This document shows, in pieces, positions 5,739-64,000 of a stretch of 64,000 nucleotides of DNA. The translations under genes were made by a program, and so were the position numbers. The notes beneath the pieces were generated by a model. It had not been told where the DNA came from, ran no database searches, and saw only the letters and a program-made list of their open reading frames with translations. The DNA lies in assembly GCA_963804815.1 (NCBI GenBank), contig CAWDRU010000002.1, forward strand, positions 4,934,780 through 4,998,779, written 5' to 3'. Position 1 is the stretch's first letter; each line of letters begins with the position of its first letter. This DNA comes from Blastocatellia bacterium (GTDB lineage: Bacteria > Acidobacteriota > Blastocatellia > UBA7656).

Positions 5739-7199
5739 TTACAAGGTGAAGGCAAATGTGTTTGAAGCGACGCCGTTGCTGATTACTCGCACCTGATTTG
5801 TGCCGCCGAGCAGGTTGAGCACGCTTTGACTTGCTCTGATTTCCAGCTTCCTGGCGGCGTTGTTGACATCCAGCTCAAGGGTAGAAGCCAGAACAAGACC
5901 GTTGATTTCGACTTGAAGCACTCCGTTAAATTTCTTCCCTTTGATTTTCAGCTTCCTTCCATTGAAGGAGACGTTCTTTATCGTCGGCGCGTCGGAACTG
6001 CTCACATCTCCGACGACCGTGTAGCCAAAGCTTCTCAGCGCGGCCAGATCATTATCGGTGATCGTGTCTCGCTGCCCGTCGGCCAGAGTCGGGTCCATAA
6101 TGCCAACATAAGTTCCCGTCAGCCGATCATCTTTCCAGTGAGACGATTGTTCCCTGTCTCCGCCTGTGCCGTCGGGTCGTCCAGTAGAGAGCGCGGCCTC
6201 TGTGCTGCCATCAAAAAATTCCTGACTGCCGCCCGAAGACAGTATCCTTTGCGCCGTCTGAAAGCTGGCCGAGGTGACGCCGGGCCGGAAGCGAAACATA
6301 TCCCAGATCGTGACGGCCACGGGTGAAGAGCGAACCAGTTCTCTGTAACCCGTGTTCGACATAAATCCCAAAACGTGCCCGATTTCGTGCGCGGCTACGG
6401 AATCGAAATCAATGCGGTTCGAGTCAACGCCATCCGACGGGTCGAAATCGTAATCGAAATCCGAGTTGAACCCGACGGCGGGCGGGTCGCCCAGATCGCT
6501 CTGCTCGGAATCAGGGTCGGCCACGGGGTTGATGAATCCAAGCGCGCGCCACTGCGCGCTCGGAGCCAGCACGTAGCTGGTCGTTCCTATGTCTGTCGGG
6601 ACGGCGGACTGAGGCAACTGGTTAAAGAGACCGGCCTGTTCGTCGCTCGCGGCAAGGCCGACAAGGCTGTCTCGCACATCGCTATATATCGAGCTGTCGC
6701 CGAGCGTCTGCGAATCGGTCTGGCCCAATACATCCTCATCATAACTCTCGCCGAACCACGTTGGCCCGAAATCAACGTCGATGATAACGGTTATAGGCGT
6801 GCTGATTAAAGACTGCCACGTGGCGGCGGCATTCAGGAAAGCCGCTTTGGCTGTGGGGAAATTTTCCAACTGGCCTGTCGCGCGCAGGACGATTTGCAGC
6901 CCCGCGCTTTCTGCCGAGAGGCTCTGCGTGCTGACCGAACGCGTCGGCGAAATCACATGCATAGACTGATTCGCGCGCCGCTTCAGGGCGCTGGCTTCTG
7001 CTTCGGTCGCCTCGCGACACCCGATCCTGCCATCAGTCCTGTAGTTGATGAATGCGTGCGACTCCGGCACAGGCAGGGGCCGGGTGCGGCTTTGTCTGAT
7101 CGAGGTCGAAGCCGCGCCAGCAGTTGGTAAAAGAGAGACAAGCGAAATCATTAATAAAGAAAGCGACGACTTTCTTACTGATCGAAAGGCACGTTGCAT
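5739..7199 (-). CDS. secreted zinc metalloprotease (HEIGHxxGF metzincin-like) with C-terminal beta domain
   Basis: AAHEIGHVLGFMSNTGY zinc-binding motif. Signal peptide after start MQRAFRSVRKSSLSLLMISLVSLLPTAGAAS. AGGAG 6 nt upstream of that ATG. Confidence 0.55.
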   Translation of the reverse strand: MQRAFRSVRKSSLSLLMISLVSLLPTAGAASTSIRQSRTRPLPVPESHAFINYRTDGRIGCREATEAEASALKRRANQSMHVISPTRSVSTQSLSAESAGLQIVLRATGQLENFPTAKAAFLNAAATWQSLISTPITVIIDVDFGPTWFGESYDEDVLGQTDSQTLGDSSIYSDVRDSLVGLAASDEQAGLFNQLPQSAVPTDIGTTSYVLAPSAQWRALGFINPVADPDSEQSDLGDPPAVGFNSDFDYDFDPSDGVDSNRIDFDSVAAHEIGHVLGFMSNTGYRELVRSSPVAVTIWDMFRFRPGVTSASFQTAQRILSSGGSQEFFDGSTEAALSTGRPDGTGGDREQSSHWKDDRLTGTYVGIMDPTLADGQRDTITDNDLAALRSFGYTVVGDVSSSDAPTIKNVSFNGRKLKIKGKKFNGVLQVEINGLVLASTLELDVNNAARKLEIRASQSVLNLLGGTNQVRVISNGVASNTFAFTL

Positions 7200-20351: not shown

Positions 20352-20566
20352 AACGTGAATTCGACATAAGAATCAGCCCTGAAAGGGCGAAATTCAATAG
20401 CACAGGGCATCGCCCTGTGTCGTACATCGTGAAATAAACCAAGTGATTTATTTCGCCCTTTCAGGGCTTGTGAGATGGTGGTGTTGCATACCGTGGGTTT
20501 CACCCACGGCTATTGAATTTCGCCCTTTCAGGGCTTTTACTTCGATTATTATGTCGAACTCGCGTT
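20352..20566 (+). mobile_element. MITE-like structured repeat, family A copy 1 (about 215 bp, internal about 24-bp deletion vs other copies)
   Basis: Terminal inverted repeats AACGTGAATTCGACATAAG ... ATTATGTCGAACTCGCGTT. Internal GCCCTGAAAGGGCGAAAT units in inverted pairs. Flanking AATGT direct duplication. Confidence 0.7.
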
Positions 20567-20767: not shown

Positions 20768-20905
20768 GCTGTAACAAAGTAACTGTAGGGGCAGGGCTTG
20801 TCCCTGCCCGGATCGCCGATAGGCGATGATCTGTCATGGCTTTCAGCCATTCGGGCAGGGACAAGCCCTGCCCCTACATTGATTGTCAACCGACTTTGTT
20901 ACAGC
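20768..20905. repeat. palindromic repeat family B copy 1 (BIME/REP-like), with 13-bp TIR GCTGTAACAAAGT and flanking 13-bp direct repeats CAAAATATTCCGG
   Basis: Inner arms TGTAGGGGCAGGGCTTGTCCCTGCCCGGATCGC / CCATTCGGGCAGGGACAAGCCCTGCCCCTACA are inverted relative to each other and each is itself a hairpin. Direct repeats at 20755-20767 and 20911-20923. Confidence 0.6.
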
Positions 20906-20975
20906 CCTGTCAAAATATTCCGGCAATTAGCGTTACGGATAGAGCGCCAGTTGGAATAATTAAAGCGTTAGGGGA

Positions 20976-23887: not shown

Positions 23888-23985
23888 CTTGACTCTCCCT
23901 TGCGTTTTAAAATATGTGCGGATAAATGACAGTATACACTACGAGCAAAACCGGGGTAGTTCAAGTCAGAGCTGTTGCGAGTAGA

Positions 23986-24104
23986 TGTAGGGGCAGGGCT
24001 TGTCCCTGCCCGGATCGCGAAGCGATGACAGACTTATAATTCGGTAGATTTCAAATCAATCATGGCCTTACGGCCATTCGGGCAGGGACAAGCCCTGCCC
24101 CTAC
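23986..24104. repeat. palindromic repeat family B copy 2 (inner arms only)
   Basis: TGTAGGGGCAGGGCTTGTCCCTGCCCGGATCGC ...57 nt... CCATTCGGGCAGGGACAAGCCCTGCCCCTAC. Lies between the stops of 22841..23887 and 24127..24906. Confidence 0.6.
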
Positions 24105-30746: not shown

Positions 30747-33700
30747 TCAGAAATTCAAACGCAGCGCGAACTGAATCTGCCGGTTCGTTCCCAGCCCTAC
30801 GGTCTTTGCGACTGTCGAATTGACGATGCCGAACGTTCCCGCCGCCGCCGAGGTGAAAGCCTCTCCCGGTTGTAGCTGGTTCAATCCGGTTCCGAGCGCA
30901 TTTGGCAGCGTCACCGGAGGATTGGCAAAGTTCGCGCGGTTGAAGATGTTAAAAATCTCTGCGCGGAACTCCAGGTTAGCCGATTCTGTGACTCTGAATC
31001 GCTTCGTCGTTACAAGGTCGAACTGCTTGAAGTCCGGCCCGCGCAGCGCACCTCGTTTGAGATTGCCAAACTCTCCCGGCGCGGGGATAGCAAACGCCGC
31101 TGGGTTGATGAACGCAGTACCGTTGATGTGTATGTAAGGATCAACGCCGGGTATCAGATCGGGTCTTCGCACGTTGCGCGATGCGCCGCCGCCCGGCGTG
31201 TTGATGATCGCAGTGCGCCCTGCGGCTGGCGAGCTGAATATCTTGCCTGCCGCGTCACGATATACGACATCGGGTCGCGTGACGAGCACGCTCAGCGGCA
31301 CGCCGCTCCGCGCGTTGACTATAGTCCCGACTTCCCAGCCGCCCAGAAACATATCGCCAATGCCGTTGAGGTTGTTCATATACGCTCTGCCTCTGCCGAA
31401 CGGCAGCGCATAGAGCGCGCTCAAATTGAAGGTGTGGCGCACGTCGAACTGATTCCAGCCTTCGTCGTAATCGAAGCTGGCGGTCCTTCTTCCTGAGGGC
31501 GTTTCTGATGTTTCGCGCGCCAGATTGCCAGAGGTCAGCGCTTCGTTTGACCCTCCGGTGGTGCCGTAGCTTCTCGCGAACGTGTACTGCGCGTTGAGCG
31601 TCAGCCCCGTGTTGAAACGGCGACCGAGCGCCAGTTGCAGCGCGTTATAACTGTCGCGCCCGCCGCTCGTCTTGAAGTCGATTTCGGCAAACGGTCTCAG
31701 AATCGTGCTTCCCTGCACAATGTCGAACTCGCGAATCACTATCGCGTTGCCTGTCGGATTAGGATTGGTTCTTACTTCCACGATCTGGTTTGTGACGCTG
31801 CGCAAAAAGAGGTTGCGCCCCTGGCTGCCTACGTAAGCCGCTGTCAACACCATTTTGTAGAAAAGCTCCTGCTGCACAGAGAAGCTGTACTGAAAAACGC
31901 GCTCCGGGATGGCATAGTCAGGAGAGTATGCGCGCGGCTGGTACTGGCGATTGTCGGGGTTGTTGATGAAGTTATTTTTCAACAGGTTGGCATCGACCGG
32001 AAACGCGCCGCCGCTGAGGGTAGAAGATATGCGGTCGCTTTCAATCGGCTGAATCTGGTCTTCGGTCTGGCCCGGCCCGTAATATAGGCCAAAGCCTCCG
32101 CGAATAACTGTTCGACCGCCGCCGAAAAATCCCGACCCCATAGGGCTGGGCGACCATGTGGCCGCGACGCGCGGGCCGAAGTTGGATTTGTGAGATCCAA
32201 AGAACTCCTGCTTCGGATCGAGCAGCACGCCTCTTGTTATATCGAACTGCACGTTCAGGTCGTTCGCCTCGCGAAGCGGCGTGTAGTATTCGTATCGAAG
32301 CCCGTAGTTGAGCGTGAAATTCGGTTTGATCTTCCACTCGTCCTGCGCAAAGCCTATGTAGTATTCCTGTTCGGCCTTGCGATTGCCGACCGCTCCATTG
32401 TTGAACGGGCTGGGCTCGCTGAGGTCGCCGCTGAACTGTACCTGCTGCACTCTATTGGCGAGAAATTCCGTGATGTTCGAGTAGGTGTAGGTGATGCCGC
32501 CGAGCCTGTCCGTGTACATGCGGATCAAGCGCGCTTCGACTCCGAACTTTGCGTTGTGGCTCCCCTTCACCCACGACAGGTTATCAACGAAAGAGAGCGA
32601 GTAAGGCGTATACGGGAATCCGCGACCGTTGAACGCGCTGCTGCCGCGTATCAATCCGCCCGGTATGGCGATGCCTGAGCTTCCGCCCTGACCCGCGATG
32701 CCTGCGTTTGCGACAGCGCCTGAGATGTTGATTATGGCGTTCGACAGATCTATGCCGTTGACTACGGGCGCGATGCCGTTGACGCGCGACAGCGCTTCGT
32801 TGAAACCGAACTTGGCTTCGTTGATCGTGTTCGACGACAAGGCTCCCTGCAAAGAGAGCACCCCGTTTTGAGGGACGGAGGTGACGACGAGGCGGCGACC
32901 CGTGACGCCCTGCGGCTCATCGTTTTCGCCCTGATCGCGGAAGTAGCGCGCGTACATGGACCACCGCGAATTGAAGCGATAATCAAAGCGAAGCGCCACA
33001 GAGTTTTCATTCACCTTCTGGCTGGAATTGAGTTGCGCCAGTTCAAAATCGGGGCTTGCCGAACGGCCCGGCAGTATGACAGCGCCGGGGGCGAGAAATG
33101 TATCAACCACCGGTCTTATAGAAGCCACGGCCCGCGCGGCTGCCGCCGCCGACGGCACGGCTTCGAGAAAGTTGATGCCAGAACGCAAACGGTATCCTTC
33201 ATAGCTTCCAAAGAAGAACAATTTATCCTTGATAATGGGGCCGCCGATTGAGCCGCCAAACTGGTTGAGGCGCAGCGGCGACTTCATTGCGCCGTCGAAA
33301 AAGTTGCGCGCATCCAGAACATCATTGCGCAAAAACTCGAACAGCGAGCCGTGAAACCGGTTCCCGCCCGAACGGGTTACGACGCTGATCTGCCCGCCTG
33401 TTCCCGTGCCGTATTCTGCCGGGTAGCTGTTGGATTCGACGCGGAATTCCTGAACGTTTTCGAGGCTGGATTGAAGACGAAACGGAGACGGCAACTCGCC
33501 GTTGACGTTGCCGGGCGATGCGTCGATGATGGCCGACCCTTCGATGCCATCGTAGCGAATGGCGTTCTGCTCTACTGCGCGACCGCTGAAGCGGATGTCG
33601 CCGAAAGTGCCCGATCCGCTGTTTTGCGAGCCGGGCGCTTGCAGGTAGAGTTGCGAAAGCTGGCGGCCATTGATCGGAAGCCCGACCACTTCGCGCTCGC

Positions 33701-34136
33701 TGACGTTTGCGCCGATGCGCGCAGAGCTTGTATCGATTGCGGCTTCCTGTGTCCCGACGATTGTTATGCTCTCGGAAGTGCCTGATGGCTTAAGCTCGAT
33801 GTCGAGCGTAAGCTCCTGACCTACGGACAACTGAACATTGGTGAATTCAGCATTGCTGAACCCCTGCGCCTTACAGTTTATCGTGTAAAAAGATGGCTTC
33901 AGCGCTGTGACCAGGTATTGGCCCTGCTCCGTCGCATTGACTGCGCGCTCTTCGCCCGTGCGCTCGTTTTTTATGGTGATGCCTGCGCCGGGCACCACCG
34001 CATTAGACTGATCGCGGACTGTGCCGACGATGCGGCCCTGATCGGTTTGAGCCAGCGCGACAGCTTGAATGAACAGCTGCGCGAAGAGTGTGAGGGCGAG
34101 CATCAAGCTCACTGAAGTACTCTTTTTTCCTGCCAT
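30747..34136 (-). CDS. TonB-dependent receptor with N-terminal carboxypeptidase-regulatory-like domain
   Basis: 1129 aa. Signal peptide. GRIVGTVRDQSNAVVPGAGITIKN (CarbopepD_reg). C-terminal ...QIQFALRLNF barrel terminus. AGGAGG RBS. Confidence 0.8.
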   Translation of the reverse strand: MAGKKSTSVSLMLALTLFAQLFIQAVALAQTDQGRIVGTVRDQSNAVVPGAGITIKNERTGEERAVNATEQGQYLVTALKPSFYTINCKAQGFSNAEFTNVQLSVGQELTLDIELKPSGTSESITIVGTQEAAIDTSSARIGANVSEREVVGLPINGRQLSQLYLQAPGSQNSGSGTFGDIRFSGRAVEQNAIRYDGIEGSAIIDASPGNVNGELPSPFRLQSSLENVQEFRVESNSYPAEYGTGTGGQISVVTRSGGNRFHGSLFEFLRNDVLDARNFFDGAMKSPLRLNQFGGSIGGPIIKDKLFFFGSYEGYRLRSGINFLEAVPSAAAAARAVASIRPVVDTFLAPGAVILPGRSASPDFELAQLNSSQKVNENSVALRFDYRFNSRWSMYARYFRDQGENDEPQGVTGRRLVVTSVPQNGVLSLQGALSSNTINEAKFGFNEALSRVNGIAPVVNGIDLSNAIINISGAVANAGIAGQGGSSGIAIPGGLIRGSSAFNGRGFPYTPYSLSFVDNLSWVKGSHNAKFGVEARLIRMYTDRLGGITYTYSNITEFLANRVQQVQFSGDLSEPSPFNNGAVGNRKAEQEYYIGFAQDEWKIKPNFTLNYGLRYEYYTPLREANDLNVQFDITRGVLLDPKQEFFGSHKSNFGPRVAATWSPSPMGSGFFGGGRTVIRGGFGLYYGPGQTEDQIQPIESDRISSTLSGGAFPVDANLLKNNFINNPDNRQYQPRAYSPDYAIPERVFQYSFSVQQELFYKMVLTAAYVGSQGRNLFLRSVTNQIVEVRTNPNPTGNAIVIREFDIVQGSTILRPFAEIDFKTSGGRDSYNALQLALGRRFNTGLTLNAQYTFARSYGTTGGSNEALTSGNLARETSETPSGRRTASFDYDEGWNQFDVRHTFNLSALYALPFGRGRAYMNNLNGIGDMFLGGWEVGTIVNARSGVPLSVLVTRPDVVYRDAAGKIFSSPAAGRTAIINTPGGGASRNVRRPDLIPGVDPYIHINGTAFINPAAFAIPAPGEFGNLKRGALRGPDFKQFDLVTTKRFRVTESANLEFRAEIFNIFNRANFANPPVTLPNALGTGLNQLQPGEAFTSAAAGTFGIVNSTVAKTVGLGTNRQIQFALRLNF

Positions 34137-34270
34137 AAATGCCTCCTGTTGTTGTTTGCGGAATGTAGTTGTTTATCTCTTCAAGTGGTAAGACATAGTG
34201 ATGCAAGCGCGGAGTCTAGCAAGCTGCGGTTAAACGATTATGAAGCCAAAATTAAATCTTTGTTACAGGT

Positions 34271-34509
34271 AACGTGAATTCGACATAAGAATCAGCCCTG
34301 AAAGGGCGAAATTCAATAGCACAGGGCATCGCCCTGTGTTGCGCATCAAGAGCAACTACAAGCCCTGTAAGGGCGAAATAAACCAAGTGATTTATTTCGC
34401 CCTTACAGGGCTTGTGAGGTGGTGGCAATCATACCCGGCGCGATGCGCCGGGCTATTGAACTTCGCCCTTTCAGGGCTTTTACTTCGATTATTATGTCGA
34501 ACTCGCGTT
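34271..34509 (+). mobile_element. MITE-like structured repeat, family A copy 2 (full length about 239 bp)
   Basis: Same TIRs as copy 1. Flanked by ACAGGT direct duplication. Its internal hairpin is cccggcgc-gat-gcgccggg instead of ccgtgggt-ttc-acccacgg. Confidence 0.7.
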
Positions 34510-34615
34510 ACAGGTAGAGTTCAAATGTATTTAAGGTTTGATTAACAAACAGATAACCCTGTGACATTAAGCTTGCATCGGACAGGAAACCTTATGTGCA
34601 AAGTGCGAGCAAGCA

Positions 34616-34852
34616 ATGTCAAAGAGCCTGGAAGAATATGCAGTGGAGTTAGAGCGCAAGGCCCGGGAGAAAGCCCACGTCATCAGGCGTGTGGTCAAAG
34701 AATACAATGCGTGTCTTCAAGGCACGACCAGCGGTGATGCATATCAAATTCCCCGCAAGCAGCGCGAAATCGAGCGCGTGGTCGCCCAATACATTCAACT
34801 TTATAAGGCGCTCAAACGGTTGCGAAAAAAGATGCGCGCCAAGCGGGAGTAA
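34616..34852 (+). CDS. small hypothetical coiled-coil protein
   Basis: ORF only. Lys/Arg/Glu-rich. Confidence 0.35.
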   Translation: MSKSLEEYAVELERKAREKAHVIRRVVKEYNACLQGTTSGDAYQIPRKQREIERVVAQYIQLYKALKRLRKKMRAKRE

Positions 34853-34881
34853 TAGTTTAAAGATTTGTCAGGAGGCAGGAA

Positions 34882-35277
34882 ATGACAGACAAGAGATCAG
34901 CATATGATCGATGCGTAGCAGAGCTTGAAATGGCTCAGATGATGTTAAACCAGATAGCCAGCAAACAGGACGCTCCGGCTGAAGATATTCACAAAGCGGC
35001 AGTCGAAGCCAAGAAACTCGAAATCCAACTGGCCGCAACTAAACTTGCGCAGGCCGATTATCACCTCGACGCTCTGAAAGCGCGGCTCGACTTTCTGAGT
35101 GCCCGTGTGGCTGCCGCAGGCGGCCCGTCGAAAAGAGAGCAGGCGGAACTTGAGTGGGCGCGCACGGCAGTGCCCATTAACAGTTCAACCGTCGCGAGGC
35201 TTGCAAACGAGCTTGAAGAACGCAAACAGGAACTGGTAGAGATGATCAGCTTCGCTTCCAAAGACGCGGCGGCCTGA
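34882..35277 (+). CDS. hypothetical coiled-coil protein
   Basis: ORF with a plausible GGAGG-like RBS (caggaggcaggaaATG). Followed by a strong terminator. Confidence 0.4.
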   Translation: MTDKRSAYDRCVAELEMAQMMLNQIASKQDAPAEDIHKAAVEAKKLEIQLAATKLAQADYHLDALKARLDFLSARVAAAGGPSKREQAELEWARTAVPINSSTVARLANELEERKQELVEMISFASKDAAA

Positions 35278-35310
35278 ACGCTCCGGTCGCTTTATAGAAT
35301 CATCTATTTT

Positions 35311-35351
35311 GACCCTGAAAGAGTCGCTCTTTCAGGGTCACACGTTTTTTT
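35311..35351 (+). terminator. rho-independent terminator
   Basis: gaccctgaaagag tcgc tctttcagggtc followed by ACACGTTTTTTT. Confidence 0.65.
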
Positions 35352-35933
35352 AGGCGGCGATGCTCACGATTGCCTGCGCATAGTGTTACATTAAAACTCA
35401 CCCTGAACAGATCACCAGTTCAAAAAAGAATAAGCGCGGCGTAACAGAGGTTGGGTGGGTTCTGTTGCGCCGCGCACAGGGAATCAATCCGACCGCGCGC
35501 TCTTTGTTCGCCAGAGGTGTGACGCGCGGTATCAGGTCTACCGATTTCGGAAAGAAGATGTTCGTAGATTAACCCGGCCTCGTTAGATAACAATTACGCA
35601 ATTGTTAAATAATCGTATCATCTGCATCCGATTTTATGGTTACTTCGGGGCATTAAATGAAGAATTTTTGTATTTCCGAAGCGAGTTTACACTCTGTTAT
35701 TGTGAATGGCTAAAAAGATATCGAAGCAGAGAGCTTATCAGTTAAGACATAAAAAGGCGGGTCTGTGCGCCCGCTGCTCAGAGGCGGCTGTAAACGGGAC
35801 TCACTGCGAGAAACACAGGGAGATGATTAATCGCATTTCCCGTGAAAGCATGAGGCGTCGCAAAGATTCCAAGCCTCAGGCCTGAGACTAGATACTTCTT
35901 TTCCCGCCCCTCGAAGCGATATTTATCGCGCTA

Positions 35934-36371
35934 TTAATTCTCTTTAAGCGCCCGCCTGCTTTTCTGCTCTACCCACGCGCCTGTTGCCGCGAATTTTTCG
36001 ATCAGCTTGTGATAATCCGAACGGTAAAGCAGCTTGATATTTACTTCCGGGTAATGCTGGCGCAGCAATCGTACTTTGCGATTCTTGGCCGTTACGAGCT
36101 TCTGTTTCAGCGTAGTCAATTCGATATAAATGTCGTGCTGAGGCAGATAGAAATCAGGCGTGAAGCCGTTGACGAAATTGCCTTCATCATCCCATTCGAT
36201 GGCAAAGGTGCGCGGCTCGTAATGCCAGGCTATCTGGTAAAAGTCGAGTATGCGCGCAAACTCTTCTTCGGATGGATGAGCGAACTCCACATGCCGCCGC
36301 TCGGCAAAGTGAACAGAGGTCTTATGCGGGCTGAGATTGCCAATCGGTTCTTCAAAATAAGATGTGGTCAT
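35934..36371 (-). CDS. hypothetical protein (possible PD-(D/E)xK-like nuclease fold?)
   Basis: ORF. GFTPDFYLPQHDIYIELTTLKQK loosely resembles a D...E.K nuclease core. Weak. Confidence 0.35.
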   Translation of the reverse strand: MTTSYFEEPIGNLSPHKTSVHFAERRHVEFAHPSEEEFARILDFYQIAWHYEPRTFAIEWDDEGNFVNGFTPDFYLPQHDIYIELTTLKQKLVTAKNRKVRLLRQHYPEVNIKLLYRSDYHKLIEKFAATGAWVEQKSRRALKEN

Positions 36372-36504
36372 ATAACGCTCCTTGTCCTGCTGGCGCGCAA
36401 CTTACGATCAGGGGGAAAGCGTCACGCGCTTCAAGAGGTTTAACCGAGTGATTAGACAGCATAAAGCCTGAAAGTTAGATGGCTATGTCCTTACTTTTAA
36501 TTTT

Positions 36505-36744
36505 AACGCGAGTTCGACATAATGATCGAAGTAAAAGCCCTGAAAGGGCGAAATTCAATAGCCGTGGGTGAAACCCACGGTATGCAACGCCACTACCACA
36601 CAAGCCCTGTAAGGGCGAAATAAACCAAGTGATTTATTTCGCCCTTACAGGGCTTGTAGTTTATCTTGATGCGCAACACAGGGCGATGCCCTGTGCTATT
36701 GAATTTCGCCCTTTCAGGGCTGATTATTATGTCGAATTCACGTT
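36505..36744 (-). mobile_element. MITE-like structured repeat, family A copy 3 (inverted orientation)
   Basis: Reverse complement matches copies 1 and 2 end to end. Flanked by AATTTT direct duplication. Confidence 0.7.
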
Positions 36745-36827
36745 AATTTTATGTAAAATCCTCATCGTTGCTTATGCTCGCCACTTTACTTTGGCGTGGA
36801 GTACACTCGCTTTCAACGGAGGGACAG

Positions 36828-37571
36828 ATGAACTGGGGTGACCTTTTAAAACTCAGCGGAATCGTAATCGTGATTGTGGGATTTGCGCTCAAGCTGCGCA
36901 CGACTCTCGTGGTCGTAACGGCTGCGCTTGTGACAGGGCTTGTGGCAGGGCTGCCGCTTTTTTCAAGCGACCTTCCCGCTCTGACCAGCCCCGAACAGGA
37001 AGGCATCATCAACATGCTTGGTCGCGCATTTTCAGACAATCGCCTGATGACGCTTTTCATCATCACGCTTCCGGCAATCGGGCTGGCCGAGCGATTCGGA
37101 TTGCAGGAGCAGTCAGCCTCGCTCATCCGCCGCATCAGCGCGGCAACCGTGGGCCGTTTGCAGATCGTCTATCAACTGCTCCGCGTGCTGATGGGCATAA
37201 TCGGCCTCAGGCTCAACGGCCACGCGGCATTCGTGCGCCCGCTGATATTTCCAATGTCCGTAGGCGCAGCCGAAGCGCAGACCTGCGCCCATAGCGCAGA
37301 CGAATTGCCCACGGAATCGGTCGAGCGAATCAAGGCCGCGAACTCCGCGAGCGAAAATTACGGTAACTTCTACGGCCAGAACCTCTCGCCCGTTCAATCG
37401 GGCATACTTCTGGTATACAGCACGTTGAAAGGGCTGGGCTATGAAGTCAGCGTTAAAAGCCTTGTGCTGTTTGCCATCCCCATCGCTTCCATCTCAATCG
37501 TTCTTGCGATCATTCAATTCCTGTTATTTGACCGGATGTTCAGAAAAAAGGCGGCGAAAAATGAACTCTAG
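36828..37571 (+). CDS. polytopic membrane protein (DUF969-like)
   Basis: Start [21 protein letters not shown] after GGAGGG. Multiple TM helices. Confidence 0.45.
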
Positions 37572-38559: not shown

Positions 38560-40920
38560 CTACTGCTCGCCGCGCCGTTCTGCTTCGAGCGCGCGTCGGA
38601 CGCGGAGGAATTCGTCTTCAAGCTCTCTGGCCATCTCGGCGGCCCCAACGACTGAACCCGCACGGCCAATCGTTTCCAACTCGGCGCAGATCGCCGTCAT
38701 CCGCGTAGCGCCGAGGTTGCCGCAACTGCTCTTTAAGGAATGCGATTTGTTGGCAAGCACATGAGCATCGGCCTGCGCTATCGCCTTTTGTATGATCGCC
38801 AGATGAGCTGTTACTTCTTCAAAAAACAGGTCGATCAGCGACGAGAAAAAATCAGGCTCGCCTTTTATCTGAAGCTTGCGCAGGCTTTCAATCACGCGCG
38901 CGTCCAGCGAAACAGTCTCGCTTGCGGCAATCTCTTCGGTCTGCCCGGCTGTTTCTGATCGAAGCGATTGTTTCCCGACCCATCGTTCGAGAACTTCGGC
39001 AAGCTCGCGCTGCCTGAAGGGCTTGCTGATATAGTCGTCCATCCCGGCGGCTAAACAGAGGTCGCGGTCTTCCGGCAAAGCGTACGCGGTCATCGCAATG
39101 ATTACGGTGTGCCTCGAATCAGCTTCGCGCCGCCTTATCTCTTTTGTCGCCTGATACCCATCCATCTCAGGCATCTGGCAGTCCATCAGCACTATGTCGT
39201 AAGCGATTTTCTCCAACGCGTCAATCGCTTCTCGCCCGTTTGAGACGGTGTCGGTTTTATAACCGGCTCGCTGAAGCTGCAACACTCCGACCTCGCGATT
39301 GACGGCATTGTCTTCGACAAGCAATATGCGAATCTGCTGGCGGCGTTCGCGCGAAGATTGCCTTTCGGGCGGCGCGTGATTTTGCCGGGCTTTAACGCTT
39401 TCGACGCCGGTCTGTTTTTCCAGCGGCGCGGTAAACCAGAATGTCGAGCCACGGCCCGGCTCGCTTTCAATTCCTATCTCTCCGCCCATCAATTCAACGA
39501 TCTGTTTAGAGATTGCCAGCCCAAGCCCCGTGCCGCCGTATTTGCGCGTCGTCGAACTGTCGGCTTGAGTGAAAGGCTGAAAAAGGTGTTGCTGCGCTTC
39601 GGGTGAAATTCCGATCCCTGTATCGCTCACGGCAAAACGGACAGTGATGCGCGATTCGCTTTCGCCTTCTCTGCTGACATGGATACGCACCTCGCCCTCT
39701 TCGGTAAATTTCACCGCATTGCTCAACAGGTTCGCGAGCACCTGACCCAATCGAACAGGGTCGCCGCGAAGCCTCCTGTGCACGCCCTCGTCAATGTGCC
39801 ACCCAAGGTCGATATCTTTTGCGCGCGCGCGTTCGACAAGCATATCTGCCACTCTTTCGACCGTCGTGCCGAGGTCGAAGTCAATGGTTTCGAGCACGAG
39901 TTTTCCCGCTTCAATTTTCGAGAAGTCGAGGATGTCATTGATTATTGCCAGCAGCGTATCGGCGCTGAACTGCGCGGTCTCGACGAGCTTGCGCTGGTCG
40001 GCGGTCAACTCGGTGCCCAGCAGCAGATCGACCATGCCGATGACGCCGTTCATTGGCGTGCGAATCTCGTGGCTCATCGTCGCCAGAAAATTCGCCTTGG
40101 CGCGAGCGGCCTCAAGCGCCTCCTCGCGCGCGCGGATCAATTCGCGCTCCAGTCGCTTTCGCTTAGTGATGTCGCGCACAATGGCAAGCGTCTCATCTTC
40201 GCCGCTCACGATGACGCGCAATTCGTAATCGCGGTCTTCAAGCTCGTACTCGAAGATTTGCGCGATGCCGTTTTCCATCTCCGCCTCGCCGCACTGTTCG
40301 ATCTGTCGCGCCATCTCAGGCGGCAAAACATCCGAGACATTTTTTCTTATGAGGTCCGAGGAGTGAGGCAGCAATTCGATGCCGCGCTTCGGGCGGTAAT
40401 CGAGAATCAACCCCTGTCGGCTCATTCTCAACATCAGATCCGGTATCGCGTTGAGCAGCGCCTGATTGCGGGCCTCGCTTTTTCTGAGCGCATCTTCGGT
40501 GCGAGCGAGTCGTTCGTAATCCAGGCTTTTCTCTCTGGCTTTCTGCGCAAGCGTCTGTATCTCTTCGTAGTTGAAGCGGAGTAGCTCGATGACAAGCAAC
40601 CTACGCGTCCCTATCCTCAGCGCGGCGGCTTCGAGGTGGCAGAGCTTCCCGGTCGAATCGGTCTCGCTCCACGGGCCGGACTTCAATCTATCGACACGGC
40701 CCGCAGTCCAGAAAGAATTGGCTTCCCAGAGAAAGTGCTCAAGGAAGATGAAAACGTCCTGTGGTCTGATCGTCTCGCTTGCAGAGATCGGCGCGGGGTA
40801 GAGGCGGGCGAACCAGTCCGGCGCGCTCCCCATCAATTTGAAAGAGCCATCTTCGAGTCTATCCATCGCCACGATATCGAGCGCGGCAAGCATCTCTGAA
40901 TTGATCGTTTCGTCAGCCAT
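38560..40920 (-). CDS. hybrid sensor histidine kinase (unknown N-terminal domain, PAS, HisKA, HATPase, REC, Hpt)
   Basis: H-box [11 protein letters not shown]-box [10 protein letters not shown], receiver LLVEDNAVN...[12 protein letters not shown]-terminal Hpt ([12 protein letters not shown]). Confidence 0.85.
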
Positions 40921-41417
40921 TAACCTTTGATCATCTTTTCGCCGATTGATTGAAAAACCTCTTCCACATTCTCGCCGGTCTTTGCGCTCGTTTCAAACAC
41001 GACCCAGCCCTTCTGTGTGAGCGCCGCGATCTCCGAATCCTGAATCTCCCATTCGCTTTTCAGGTCCGATTTGTTTATCAGGAGGATGAACGGCGCGCTG
41101 CCTATCTCGTTTTCCGCGCGTTGTTGAAGCTCGGCGGCTTTATCAAGCGTCGCTCGCCGCGTGCCGTCAGCGACCAGAAAATAGCCCGCCGAGCCGCGCA
41201 GGTAAGATGTGCGTAACTGTAGAAATTCGTCCTCGCCCGCAAGGTCCCAGAGTATGAGCGTCATCTCCTGACCGCCGACGCTCAGGCTCTTTTTATCAAT
41301 CTTCACGCCCACCGTCGTCAGATACTTATCCGAGAATATGCTTTTGACGAAGCGCGCGACAAGACTAGTCTTGCCCACTGCGAAAGCCCCAACCATGCAA
41401 ATTTTTTTCTGAATCAC
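40920..41417 (-). CDS. Ras-superfamily small GTPase (Ras/Rab-like)
   Basis: All five G-boxes present: GAFAVGKTS (G1), TTVGV (G2), WDLAGED (G3), NKSD (G4), ETSAK (G5). Its stop overlaps the start of the hybrid kinase (TAATG). Confidence 0.8.
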
Positions 41418-62716: not shown

Positions 62717-64000
62717 TTACCGGCAAACATCGTCATTTGGATTTTGCTGGCAGAGCAGTTTTTTCAACCCATCAATTAGTGATTGCTGTTGTTTGAGTTG
62801 TTTCTGCTGCGATTCAAGCTGCGTCTGCTGTTGTTTGAGTTGGGATTGCTGCGCTTCGATCTGCGTTTGTTGTTCTTTGACAGCGTTGACCAAAACGGTT
62901 GAGATGCGATCATATTTGACGCCTTCGACCTGCCCTTTCTCATTATAGGTAACGAGTAAAGGATTGATTGCCGCAACCTCTTCTGCGCCAAAGCCGAGGT
63001 CTTTCATCCCGCCGTCCTTCCAGATGAAGGTGATCGGGCGCAAACGCTGCACAAGGTTCAAGCCGAAATTAAAAGGCGCAATGTTCGTTTTATAGCGGAG
63101 GCTTGACGAGCAGGCAGCGATTTGATTGGAAGCGTTTCGACAAAGCTGACTGCTGCCCGCCGTGCCAAGCGCGTTCAGTTGCAGTTTGCCGGGAATTAAA
63201 ACGGTATCGACTCCCGCGCTCTGCCCTAAAACTATAGTGTTGCTGGCGCTGACAGTTGTGCCTGCGCCAATAGCAGTAGCAAAGGAAAGATTGTTTGAGC
63301 CGACATTGGCGGATGAACCAATGATCGTGTTACTGCTGCCTGTTGTATTGGTCGATCCTGCCTGATAACCGGCAAACACATTGCTGCTGCCTGTCGTGTT
63401 GTTGTAGCCCGCGTTTATCCCCAGAAATGAATTCAGGTTCCCAGTCGTGCTGCTGTAACCGGCCTGCGTGCCGATGAACGAATTGTTCGTACCCTCTGTG
63501 TTGCTGTAGCCCGCTTGAGAGCCGAAAAACGAGTTAAAAAAACCAGTGGTGTTGCTGAAGCCTGCGCTGGTGCCAAAGAATGAACCGCTGTTGCCAGTCG
63601 CATTAGTATAGCCCGCTTGATAACCGGCAAATGCGTTCCCGCTGCCCGTTGTATTGTTTAAGCCTGCCTGAAGACCAAAAAACAGATTAGCGAAGCCCGT
63701 CGTGTTGCTTTGGCCCGCGCTGGTGCCAAAGAACGAGTTATAGTTCCCGGTCGTGTTGCTCAAACCTGCGCTGGCCCCGAAAAACGAATTGCTGAAGCCC
63801 GTCGTGTTGTTATAGCCCGCGCTGGTGCCGACAAATGAATTGGCATTGGCTGTCGTGTTATAGAAGCCTGCGCTGGTGCCGACAAAAGTATTACTGTTGC
63901 CTGTCGTATTGCTATAACCCGCGCTGCGACCGAGAAACGCATTAACAACGCCGCTCGTATTATTGAATCCTGCGCTGGTGCCGACAAACACGTTATTGTT
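62717..64000 (-). CDS. tail-fiber-like repeat protein with C-terminal peptidase-S74 intramolecular-chaperone domain (5' part beyond window)
   Basis: More than 25 tandem units of the type GTSAGYNNTTGxSNSFFG. C-terminus LRYKTNIAPF...ITFIWKDG... and a Q-rich coiled coil, as in phage tail-spike autochaperone domains. The ORF is open to the window edge. Confidence 0.6.
   Translation of the reverse strand, partial: NNNVFVGTSAGFNNTSGVVNAFLGRSAGYSNTTGNSNTFVGTSAGFYNTTANANSFVGTSAGYNNTTGFSNSFFGASAGLSNTTGNYNSFFGTSAGQSNTTGFANLFFGLQAGLNNTTGSGNAFAGYQAGYTNATGNSGSFFGTSAGFSNTTGFFNSFFGSQAGYSNTEGTNNSFIGTQAGYSSTTGNLNSFLGINAGYNNTTGSSNVFAGYQAGSTNTTGSSNTIIGSSANVGSNNLSFATAIGAGTTVSASNTIVLGQSAGVDTVLIPGKLQLNALGTAGSSQLCRNASNQIAACSSSLRYKTNIAPFNFGLNLVQRLRPITFIWKDGGMKDLGFGAEEVAAINPLLVTYNEKGQVEGVKYDRISTVLVNAVKEQQTQIEAQQSQLKQQQTQLESQQKQLKQQQSLIDGLKKLLCQQNPNDDVCR

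What the first reader, a model, noticed from the sequence alone, without database searches (positions are those of the whole stretch)
34137..36827. Accessory-looking 2.7-kb interval bounded by two inverted MITE copies, containing a roughly 650-bp ORF-free segment
Two small coiled-coil ORFs with a strong terminator, a 145-aa ORF on the opposite strand with a faint PD-(D/E)xK-like core (PDFYLPQHDIYIELTTLK), and 35280-35933 with no ORF of 60 aa or more on either strand lie between MITE copy 2 (+) and MITE copy 3 (-). Such a long non-coding stretch in an otherwise compact region suggests a structured ncRNA or a decayed gene. The inverted MITE pair could mobilise or rearrange the interval as a composite unit.
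Basis: partly seen in the sequence, partly recalled or inferred. Interest (0 to 1): 0.5.

Follow-up and report, generated by a model that had tools for sequence, protein, structure and literature searches.

The report
Old gene block between two MITEs
The 2.7-kb interval is an older, lineage-specific gene block of a Blastocatellia (Acidobacteriota) genome that two small IS982-type transposon relics hit separately, and its "empty" stretch holds a terminator, a conserved structured non-coding element (a candidate small RNA) and a real 59-residue zinc-binding protein gene.

Summary
Two ~238-bp repeat copies in inverted orientation bound 34137-36827, and a third lies at 20353-20565. The composite-transposon reading fails. 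Each copy has its own target-site duplication (TACAGGTA; TAATTTTA), the outer flanks differ, and relatives carry the same genes at the same junction without the repeats, including a base-precise empty site.

The repeats are MITEs with IS982-family terminal inverted repeats. Each carries two modules that score above threshold for Rfam Acido-Lenti-1.

The 654-bp "ORF-free" stretch contains three things:
- the intrinsic terminator of the two-gene helical-protein operon;
- a ~190-bp element (35420-35610) conserved in seven related loci, with two covarying hairpins, no codon periodicity and no Rfam match, so a candidate sRNA whose strand is unresolved;

The 145-aa ORF is an N-terminally shortened member of a family of more than 3,700 Blastocatellia proteins with a T7-endonuclease-I-like PD-(D/E)xK fold. 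The segment between the conserved element and DUF969 varies in gene content among relatives, independently of the MITEs.

Overall this is mostly ordinary, with one modestly new item: the candidate RNA.

The parts
34272..34508 (+). MITE copy 2: IS982-type terminal inverted repeats, two inward-facing Acido-Lenti-1 modules (34294-34338 -, 34434-34478 +) and a central perfect palindrome (34358-34415). It is flanked by the 8-bp duplication TACAGGTA (34264-34271 and 34509-34516). It lies in the divergent intergenic region between the TonB-type OMP gene and the 78-aa gene.
34616..34852 (+). 78-aa helical protein gene. Lineage-restricted (23 homologs). First gene of a two-gene operon.
34882..35277 (+). 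131-aa all-helical (three long helices) protein gene. Lineage-restricted (29 homologs). No functional match.
35310..35350 (+). Intrinsic terminator of the 78/131-aa operon: 14-bp stem, 3-nt loop, T-run. Relatives have a different hairpin plus T-run at the same place.
35420..35610 (.). Conserved structured non-coding core. H1 is 35434-35475 and H2 is 35492-35530. An invariant block GGTCTACCGATnnCGGAAAGAA starts at 35535. Two conserved 7-nt blocks GTTAGAT (35582-35588) and GTTAAAT (35604-35610) lie at the right edge. On the minus strand H1 is followed by a U-rich tail (35420-35433). Candidate sRNA gene, strand unresolved, minus strand favoured.
35706..35885 (+). 59-aa C-x2-C-x9-C-x2-H zinc-binding protein gene with 270 homologs. 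Absent at this position from the relatives' loci examined.
35934..36371 (-). 145-aa PD-(D/E)xK (T7 endonuclease I-like) protein gene. It lacks about 55 residues of the N-terminal region present in most of the family's 3,700+ members.
36506..36743 (-). MITE copy 3, inverted relative to copy 2, with Acido-Lenti-1 modules at 36536-36580 (-) and 36677-36721 (+). It is flanked by the 8-bp duplication TAATTTTA (36498-36505 and 36744-36751). It lies 78 bp upstream of the DUF969 start codon (36829). L003 has the base-precise empty site.
20353..20565 (+). MITE copy 1, with a 24-bp internal deletion, flanked by the 7-bp duplication TAATGTA. It shows that the family is dispersed in this genome.

Best explanation
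The interval is an ancestral, lineage-specific block of a Blastocatellia genome. It lies between a TonB-dependent-receptor-like outer-membrane protein gene and the DUF969/DUF979 operon, and it was there before the repeats arrived.

Two non-autonomous IS982-type MITEs later inserted separately into the AT-rich divergent intergenic regions at its two edges. Each duplicated a TA(N4)TA target. No transposase lies in the window, so any movement would need an IS982 transposase encoded elsewhere (inferred).

The block consists of:
(i) a two-gene operon of small helical proteins ending in an intrinsic terminator;
(ii) a ~170-190-nt conserved structured non-coding element. I think it is most likely a small RNA gene read on the minus strand, running from two conserved blocks at 35582-35610 to hairpin H1 plus a U-tail at 35475-35420. 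This is inferred, not shown;
(iii) a variable segment that here holds a 59-aa zinc-binding protein gene and an N-terminally shortened PD-(D/E)xK nuclease-like gene.

The MITE pair does not define or move the block.
For: MITE identity:
- The terminal repeat TAACGYGARTTCGACATAA occurs in more than 114 contigs from many phyla.
- In L081 two such ends bound a ~1-kb element whose frameshifted transposase matches NF033520 (IS982) at 1e-37 and 1e-31.
- About 25 nt of the terminal repeat (TAACGTGAxTTCGACATAAGAATCA) match that IS with one mismatch.

Independent insertion:
- The per-copy duplications are TACAGGTA, TAATTTTA and TAATGTA. The outer flanks of the pair do not match.
- L003 has CCTTACTTTTAATTTTATGTAAAATCC uninterrupted at the copy-3 site.
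- No MITE sequence occurs in L003 or L008-L012.

Ancestral block:
- L003 has the same order: OMP, 77 aa, 131 aa, nuclease-like, DUF969, DUF979.
- L008-L013 keep the operon and the core.

Core:
- It is found after the 131/133-aa gene in seven independent loci.
- 97% of cells are paired, against 37-50% when the partners are slid.
- 10 pairs changed on both sides, and 0 of 500 shuffles reached the observed values.
- Variable sites fall 27/25/25 by codon phase, and translations drift out of frame.
- A T-rich tail follows H1 on the minus strand in 7 of 7 sequences.
- It has no Rfam match.

59-aa gene: 270 homologs, with invariant C21, C24, C34 and H37.

Nuclease-like gene: more than 3,700 homologs, a T7 endonuclease I profile hit at E = 6e-4, PD-(D/E)xK-only top fold hits, and PHROG endonuclease and resolvase families at 1e-9.
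Against: - The copy-2 site has diverged in L003, so only copy 3 has a clean empty site.
- The core's strand is not resolved. Both strands give the same consensus energy and the same covariation. G.U counts lean to the plus strand, 17 cells against 4.
- The conserved edge blocks are poor sigma-70 hexamers on either strand.
- Overall the core is no more conserved than the neighbouring coding DNA: 82-86% against 85-88%.
- Only about five independent lineages support the covariation. The tool's own caveat says related sequences can beat the shuffles without any structure.
- No expression data exist.
- The nuclease-like protein scores below Pfam's threshold (22.4 against 29.1 bits) and lacks the canonical Lys of (D/E)xK.
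Confidence: 0.8

Rival explanations
1. Composite transposon or invertible cassette. The two inverted MITE copies and everything between them form one unit that was brought in, can be moved by a transposase acting on the outer ends, or can flip by recombination between the copies.
For: - Two 94%-complementary copies in inverted orientation bound the interval.
- The outer ends are intact terminal repeats.
- The interval has lower G+C than its flanks.
- Assemblies break at both copies (L001 and L002), so read-level heterogeneity cannot be excluded.
Against: - Each copy has its own matching 8-bp duplication, and the outer flanks (…CAGGTA / TAATTTTA…) differ.
- An odd number of inversions would have swapped the inner flanks and broken both duplications.
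- Relatives have the block at the same junction without MITEs.
- The window has no IS982 transposase.
- L001 reads through copy 2 in the same orientation as the window.
Confidence: 0.04
2. The conserved core is not an RNA gene. It is a DNA-level regulatory region: a promoter or operator for the gene to its right (DUF969/DUF979 in L008 and L009, the 59-aa gene here). The direct repeats GTTAGAT and GTTAAAT, 22 bp apart start to start, would serve as hexamers or as binding sites for a regulator.
For: - The two blocks are conserved while the spacer between them varies in sequence but keeps its length. That is a promoter-like pattern.
- The consensus scan finds TAGATA-18-AATAAT at 35584-35613 on the plus strand.
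- In 4 of the 7 distinct loci a co-oriented gene starts within about 100-400 bp to the right.
- A similar GTTAGAT-N17-TAATTT lies just upstream of DUF969 in the window at 36468-36497. Copy 3 is inserted in its AT-rich second block.
Against: - A promoter does not explain the compensatory changes in H1 and H2, which lie 50-170 bp upstream of it.
- In L010, L011 and L013 the putative promoter fires into a convergent gene.
- The blocks match sigma-70 hexamers poorly.
Confidence: 0.25
3. The core encodes a small protein: the 57-aa minus-strand ORF at 35420-35593 or the 43-aa plus-strand ORF at 35455-35586.
For: - Both ORFs are open in the window and in L003.
- One minus-strand frame stays open across the core in 6 of 7 sequences.
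Against: - Variable sites fall evenly by phase (27/25/25).
- Translations of L011 and L013 diverge as if frameshifted, and L013 has an in-frame stop.
- The length difference between the cores (191 against 180 nt) is not a multiple of three.
- The substitutions are compensatory in stems.
Confidence: 0.05

Closest known systems
IS982-family MITEs (for example MITECca01 of the Cardinium endosymbiont, ~240 bp; PMC9769881)
   Same: It is about 240 bp long with no transposase. Its terminal inverted repeats match an IS982-family IS. It has short target duplications and dispersed copies in intergenic DNA.
   Different: The host phylum is different (Acidobacteriota, Blastocatellia). The interior is built from two inverted Acido-Lenti-1 modules plus a 58-nt perfect palindrome, not from remnants of the parent IS. 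The parent IS was not found in the 64-kb window.
Rfam RF01687, Acido-Lenti-1 RNA motif (Weinberg et al. 2010, PMC2864571)
   Same: Six matches in the window score 41.7-43.5 bits against a gathering score of 37. They have the two-hairpin architecture, and the first hairpin differs between copies while keeping its pairing.
   Different: Here the motif is not a free-standing sRNA locus. It occurs as paired, inward-facing modules inside a transposon-derived repeat. The published seed alignment with its flanks lacks the IS982-type ends, so the association is specific to this lineage. It was also seen in acidobacterial L046.
Phage T7 endonuclease I (PDB 3cae, 2pfj, 1m0d; Pfam PF05367), a PD-(D/E)xK Holliday-junction resolvase
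   Same: The family profile aligns its TPDFYLP…IE segment to T7 YTPDFLLP…VE at E = 6e-4. The predicted fold retrieves only PD-(D/E)xK nucleases among the top hits. PHROG endonuclease and resolvase families match at 1e-9.
   Different: It scores below Pfam's threshold. The Lys of E-x-K is an invariant Thr, with a near-invariant Lys three residues later. It is a chromosomal family of more than 3,700 Blastocatellia proteins, usually with an extra ~60-residue N-terminal region that the window copy lacks.
Intergenic or 3'-UTR-derived bacterial sRNAs with a Rho-independent terminator, and the Acido-1 motif (RF01686: two hairpins with a conserved linker)
   Same: It has two covarying hairpins joined by a linker with a conserved run (CACAGGG on the plus strand). 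The terminal GC-rich hairpin is followed by a U-tail on the minus strand. It is about 150-190 nt long. In L011 and L013 it directly abuts the stop codon of the upstream (minus-strand) nuclease-like gene, as a 3'-UTR-derived sRNA would.
   Different: It has no Rfam match at E <= 1, including Acido-1. The strand, the promoter and expression are all unproven.

Membership tests
IS982-derived MITE | Terminal inverted repeats matching those of an IS982-family insertion sequence | tested here: met
   All six ends match ACGYGARTTCGACATAA exactly. The same ends bound an element in L081 that encodes an IS982 transposase (NF033520, 1e-37 and 1e-31).
IS982-derived MITE | Small size, no transposase, several dispersed copies | tested here: met
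   The copies are 213-238 bp. Three copies lie in the 64-kb window. tblastn finds no IS982 transposase in the window.
IS982-derived MITE | Target-site duplication, and an empty site in a relative | tested here: met
   The duplications are TACAGGTA, TAATTTTA and TAATGTA. L003 has the uninterrupted TAATTTTA site for copy 3. The copy-2 site has diverged in L003.
IS982-derived MITE | An autonomous parent IS in the same genome able to supply transposase | not testable with these tools
   Only 64 kb of the ~7.9-Mb source contig is available.
Composite transposon / invertible cassette | One shared target duplication at the outer ends of the pair | tested here: not met
   The outer flanks are GTTACAGGTA and TAATTTTATG. 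Each copy is instead flanked by its own duplication.
Composite transposon / invertible cassette | The cargo is absent from the locus in relatives that lack the bounding elements | tested here: not met
   L003 has the same gene order without MITEs. L008-L013 keep the operon and the core.
Rfam Acido-Lenti-1 (RF01687) | Score at or above the family's gathering threshold with the full-length model | tested here: met
   Six hits score 41.7-43.5 bits against 37, covering model positions 1-46 of 46.
Rfam Acido-Lenti-1 (RF01687) | Acts as an expressed, free-standing small RNA | not testable with these tools
   No transcript data are available. Here the motif is embedded in a MITE.
PD-(D/E)xK nuclease, T7 endonuclease I-like (PF05367) | Pfam gathering score | tested here: not met
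   It scores 22.4 bits against a cut-off of 29.1. Three of the 120 listed homologs carry a precomputed PF05367 hit.
PD-(D/E)xK nuclease, T7 endonuclease I-like (PF05367) | Restriction-endonuclease-like alpha/beta fold | tested here: met
   The AF2 core has block-mean pLDDT of about 72-89. The nine best Foldseek PDB hits are all PD-(D/E)xK nucleases, with probability up to 0.99 but weak E-values (6e-3 and above). The PDB profile hit to 3cae has E = 6e-4.
PD-(D/E)xK nuclease, T7 endonuclease I-like (PF05367) | Catalytic D, (D/E)-x-K triad | tested here: inconclusive
   D73 (in PD) and E84 are invariant and align to the PD and E of the T7 PDFLLP…VETK segment, which I take to be its catalytic Asp and Glu. 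The Lys position is an invariant Thr86. K89 is near-invariant.
Structured bacterial sRNA (no named family) | Base pairs kept through compensatory changes across homologs | tested here: met
   H1 has 8 and H2 has 2 pairs changed on both sides. 97% of cells are paired against 37-50% when slid. 0 of 500 shuffles reached the observed values. The set is small, about five independent lineages.
Structured bacterial sRNA (no named family) | Not protein-coding | tested here: met
   There is no third-position excess (27/25/25). Translations shift frame, and L013 has a stop.
Structured bacterial sRNA (no named family) | Own promoter and terminator; a discrete transcript | tested here: inconclusive
   A hairpin plus U-tail is present on the minus strand in 7 of 7 sequences. 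Conserved blocks sit at the other edge but are weak as hexamers. The strand is unresolved. No expression data exist.
Structured bacterial sRNA (no named family) | Match to a curated RNA family | tested here: not met
   No Rfam hit at E <= 1 over 35280-35933.

The most novel reading that the evidence does not exclude
The ~170-190-nt core at 35420-35610 is a previously undescribed structured small RNA, confined to a narrow Blastocatellia lineage. Its promoter-side edge marks a hot spot where genes are repeatedly gained and lost: the nuclease-like gene, the 59-aa zinc protein, a secreted protein, an amidohydrolase.

Separately, the Rfam 'sRNA' Acido-Lenti-1 may behave in this lineage as a mobile DNA hairpin module carried by IS982-type MITEs, not as an RNA gene.
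Probability: 0.4. Interest if true: 0.45.

Novelty: new member of a known kind. Interest (0 to 1): 0.3.

Why it matters
The finding mainly clears up a false lead. A pair of inverted MITEs around a low-GC interval looks like a mobile cassette, but target duplications and comparison with relatives show it is not one.

Two smaller points may be useful:
- An Rfam family annotated as an sRNA gene occurs here only as an internal module of a transposon relic. Annotators should bear this in mind when they see RF01687 hits in Acidobacteriota.
- A conserved, covarying, non-coding element with no Rfam match is a concrete candidate sRNA in a phylum where very few regulatory RNAs are known.

The MITEs also sit in two divergent promoter regions. 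One is 78 bp upstream of the DUF969/DUF979 operon, so they could alter expression of the neighbouring genes.

Tried and rejected
- Two metagenome scans with exact strings from the core gave 0 hits and 1 hit. Relatives therefore had to be reached through the 131-aa protein.
- I first judged the core to be more conserved than the coding DNA from the pairwise view with L003. Measurement showed it is only about equally conserved.
- G.U against A.C counting to assign the strand was inconclusive once the minus-strand fold was made.
- The palindrome TAACAATT-ACGC-AATTGTTA (35588-35607) looked like an operator or a hairpin. It is not kept in L008-L013, so I dropped it.
- A covariance model of the core found no second copy in the window. 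It also found none downstream of the nuclease-like gene in the distant relatives L004-L007.
- The idea that Acido-Lenti-1 is in general a MITE part was rejected. The published seed flanks lack the IS982 ends. Of 18 loci carrying the terminal repeat, only acidobacterial L046 had the motif.
- NCBIfam gave no informative match for the 78-, 131-, 59- or 145-aa proteins (only two far-below-threshold coiled-coil-type hits for the 131-aa protein). PADLOC gave only marginal PD-(D/E)xK-type hits for the 145-aa protein.
- The fold search for the 131-aa protein returned only generic helical bundles.
Full report
SOURCE AND CONTEXT

The proteins of the interval are recorded as hypothetical proteins of a Blastocatellia bacterium MAG, on a 7.9-Mb contig. 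The interval lies between a 1129-aa TonB-dependent-receptor-like outer-membrane protein gene (30747-34136, minus; PF25183 and CarboxypepD_reg) and the DUF969/DUF979 operon (ATG at 36829).

CHECK OF THE OBSERVATION

They are detailed in the observation check.

- The three repeat copies and their coordinates are confirmed.
- The two small plus-strand ORFs, the strong terminator at 35310-35340 and the 145-aa minus-strand ORF are confirmed.
- The 131-aa protein is predicted as three long helices at pLDDT 90.6, which fits 'coiled-coil'. Its fold matches only generic helical bundles.

WHAT THE REPEATS ARE

The ends are ACGYGARTTCGACATAA in inverted orientation. The 19-mer TAACGYGARTTCGACATAA occurs in more than 114 contigs of unrelated phyla, often at contig ends. 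These include Blastocatellia, Bacteroidota, Nitrosomonas, Legionella, Leptospira, cyanobacteria and Poribacteria.

In L081 two inward-facing copies bound a ~1-kb element. Its frameshifted ORFs match the two halves of the NCBIfam IS982 transposase model (1e-37 and 1e-31). About 25 nt of that element's ends match the window's repeat with one mismatch.

With ends taken as AC…GT, the copies are flanked by TAATGTA, TACAGGTA and TAATTTTA. These are target duplications of 7-8 bp of the form TA…TA. From my memory of ISfinder, the IS982 family has AC ends and 3-9-bp duplications.

The repeats are therefore IS982-type MITEs, a known kind of element (for example the ~240-bp MITECca01; PMC9769881).

Their interior carries two inward-facing modules that each score above the gathering threshold for Rfam Acido-Lenti-1 (41.7-43.5 bits against 37), plus a 58-nt perfect palindrome. 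The first hairpin of the module differs between copies while keeping its pairing: CACAGGGC…GCCCTGTG, CCGTGGGT…ACCCACGG and CCCGGCGC…GCGCCGGG.

Weinberg et al. describe the motif only as a candidate sRNA of Acidobacteria and Lentisphaerae, sometimes near group II introns (PMC2864571). Their seed alignment with flanks lacks the IS982-type ends. Among 18 loci carrying the terminal repeat, only acidobacterial L046 had the motif. The combination is therefore specific to this lineage.

NOT A COMPOSITE UNIT

- Each copy has its own matching duplication, and the outer flanks of the pair differ.
- The closest relative with a long contig is L003 (JGI Ga0494116_000157). It has the same order: OMP, 77 aa, 131 aa, nuclease-like, DUF969, DUF979, histidine kinase, Ras-like GTPase. 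It has neither MITE.
- At the copy-3 site L003 reads CCTTACTTTTAATTTTATGTAAAATCC without interruption.
- The copy-2 site has diverged in L003, but the MITE is absent there too.
- No MITE sequence is found in L003 or L008-L012.
- An odd number of inversions between the copies would have swapped the inner flanks and destroyed both duplications. Both are intact.
- A second assembly (L001) reads through copy 2 in the same orientation.

THE 'ORF-FREE' 654 BP

It resolves into four parts.

(1) 35310-35350 is the operon's terminator. Relatives have a different hairpin plus T-run at the same place.

(2) 35420-35610 is a conserved core. It directly follows the 131/133-aa gene in L003, L008, L009, L010, L011/L012 and L013, whatever lies to its right. 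The intergenic DNA around it is not alignable.

- Two hairpins are supported by compensatory change. H1 (35434-35475, 15-17 bp) has 8 pairs changed on both sides. H2 (35492-35530) has 2.
- 97% of cells are paired, against 37-50% with slid partners. 0 of 500 shuffles reached the observed values.
- The right half (35531-35610) is nearly invariant and so says nothing about structure.
- The core is not coding. Variable columns fall 27/25/25 by phase, translations of L011 and L013 drift out of frame, and L013 has a stop.
- It has no Rfam match at E <= 1.
- Overall it is about as conserved as the adjacent coding DNA (82-86% against 85-88%), not more. This corrects my first impression.

The strand is unresolved.
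- Both strands give the same consensus energy and covariation.
- G.U counts lean to the plus strand.
- Only the minus strand has a terminator-like layout, with H1 followed by a T-rich tail in 7 of 7 sequences.
- The conserved blocks GTTAGAT and GTTAAAT, with a spacer of constant length and variable sequence, lie at the opposite edge, where a minus-strand promoter would be.
- In L011 and L013 the stop codon of the minus-strand nuclease-like gene overlaps that edge. There the core looks like a 3'-UTR element.

I favour a minus-strand sRNA of about 150-170 nt, at about 50% overall. The main rival is a plus-strand promoter or operator region.

- It has 270 homologs at E <= 1e-3 among 1.8 billion representatives, the best at 76% identity and E = 1e-20.
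- Q8, Q12, R14, C21, C24, C34 and H37 are invariant.
- Longer relatives repeat the unit and hit Pfam WRC and zf-C3Hc3H.
- It is a real small zinc-binding protein gene.

(4) 35886-35933 is a short convergent spacer with a small hairpin.

THE 145-AA ORF

It belongs to a family of more than 3,700 proteins, mostly Blastocatellia and typically 200-220 aa. The window copy has lost about 55 residues after MTTSYFEEP but keeps every invariant residue of the C-terminal domain.

- The family profile hits T7 endonuclease I structures (3cae, E = 6e-4), aligning PD and E of the active site.
- The AF2 model (pLDDT 70 overall; block means of about 72-89 across the core) retrieves only PD-(D/E)xK nucleases among its top hits.
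- PHROG endonuclease and resolvase families match at 1e-9.
- It is below Pfam's threshold.
- The Lys of E-x-K is an invariant Thr, with a near-invariant Lys three residues on. Membership of PF05367 is therefore not claimed, and activity is uncertain.
- In distant relatives the gene sits between a SPOR-domain gene and a phosphoribosyltransferase gene.
- At this junction its state varies among relatives: full length in L003, shortened in the window and in L011/L012, a remnant in L013, and absent in L008-L010.

A VARIABLE SPOT

The segment between the core and DUF969 differs in every lineage examined, independently of the MITEs.
- L008 and L009: nothing.
- Window: the 59-aa gene plus the nuclease-like gene.
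- L003: a 127-aa secreted ORF, the nuclease-like gene and a paralog of the 78-aa gene.
- L010: an amidohydrolase plus a 590-aa ORF.

'Accessory-looking' is therefore fair for roughly 35626-36470. It is not fair for the operon and the core, which are fixed in this lineage (23-29 homologs each).

VERDICT

The MITE pair is incidental and the block is ancestral.

The new items are a candidate structured RNA and the embedding of an Rfam 'sRNA' motif in an IS982-type MITE. Both are modest. Interest is 0.3, and the novelty class is a new member of a known kind.

Noticed in passing
window 20768-20912 and 23974-24104: A second, unrelated palindromic repeat family, with core GTAGGGGCAGGGCTTGTCCCTGCCC…GGGCAGGGACAAGCCCTGCCCCTAC. 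The copy at 20768-20912 has outer inverted ends GGGCTGTAACAAAGT / ACTTTGTTACAGCCC. The two copies lie in inverted orientation around an Amidohydro_3 gene and a DUF4440/DUF3471 gene, 200 bp from MITE copy 1.
   Followed up: partly
window 63369-63980: Eight copies of a 51/102-nt direct tandem repeat at 63-73% identity. It probably encodes a repeat protein.
   Followed up: no
window 36468-36505 and 36744-36760: MITE copy 3 is inserted in the AT-rich second block of a GTTAGAT-N17-TAATTT motif, 78 bp upstream of the DUF969 start. The motif resembles the GTTAGAT…GTTAAAT blocks at the edge of the conserved core. The insertion may have disrupted or replaced a promoter.
   Followed up: partly
L004 7001-7663, L005 7001-7621, L007 7001-7627: In more distant Blastocatellia the nuclease-like gene is followed by a phosphoribosyltransferase gene about 350-450 bp downstream. 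In L004 and L005 it is preceded by a SPOR-domain gene. This is probably the family's usual home. The window's copy may be a displaced or second copy.
   Followed up: partly
L003 6621-6893: A 79-90-aa paralog of the window's 78-aa ORF lies between DUF969 and the nuclease-like gene in L003. It is absent from the window.
   Followed up: no
L009 about 6420-6620: Two copies of a hairpin-forming repeat (AAGCTCCGTAGGAGCGACCTGT type) lie between the 131-aa gene and the core. L008 has one, which serves as a terminator-like hairpin. This is another small repeat family in relatives.
   Followed up: no
L071 6203-6357 and L079 3261-3467: Short elements of 155 bp (Legionella gresilensis) and 207 bp (a Pyrinomonadaceae MAG) are bounded by the same IS982-type ends. 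This suggests that MITEs with these ends arose in several phyla. Neither locus gave an Acido-Lenti-1 hit.
   Followed up: partly
window 38560-41417: A hybrid histidine kinase (HisKA, HATPase, receiver, Hpt) is immediately followed by a Ras/Roc-like small GTPase gene. The pair is conserved next to DUF979 in L003, L008 and L009.
   Followed up: no
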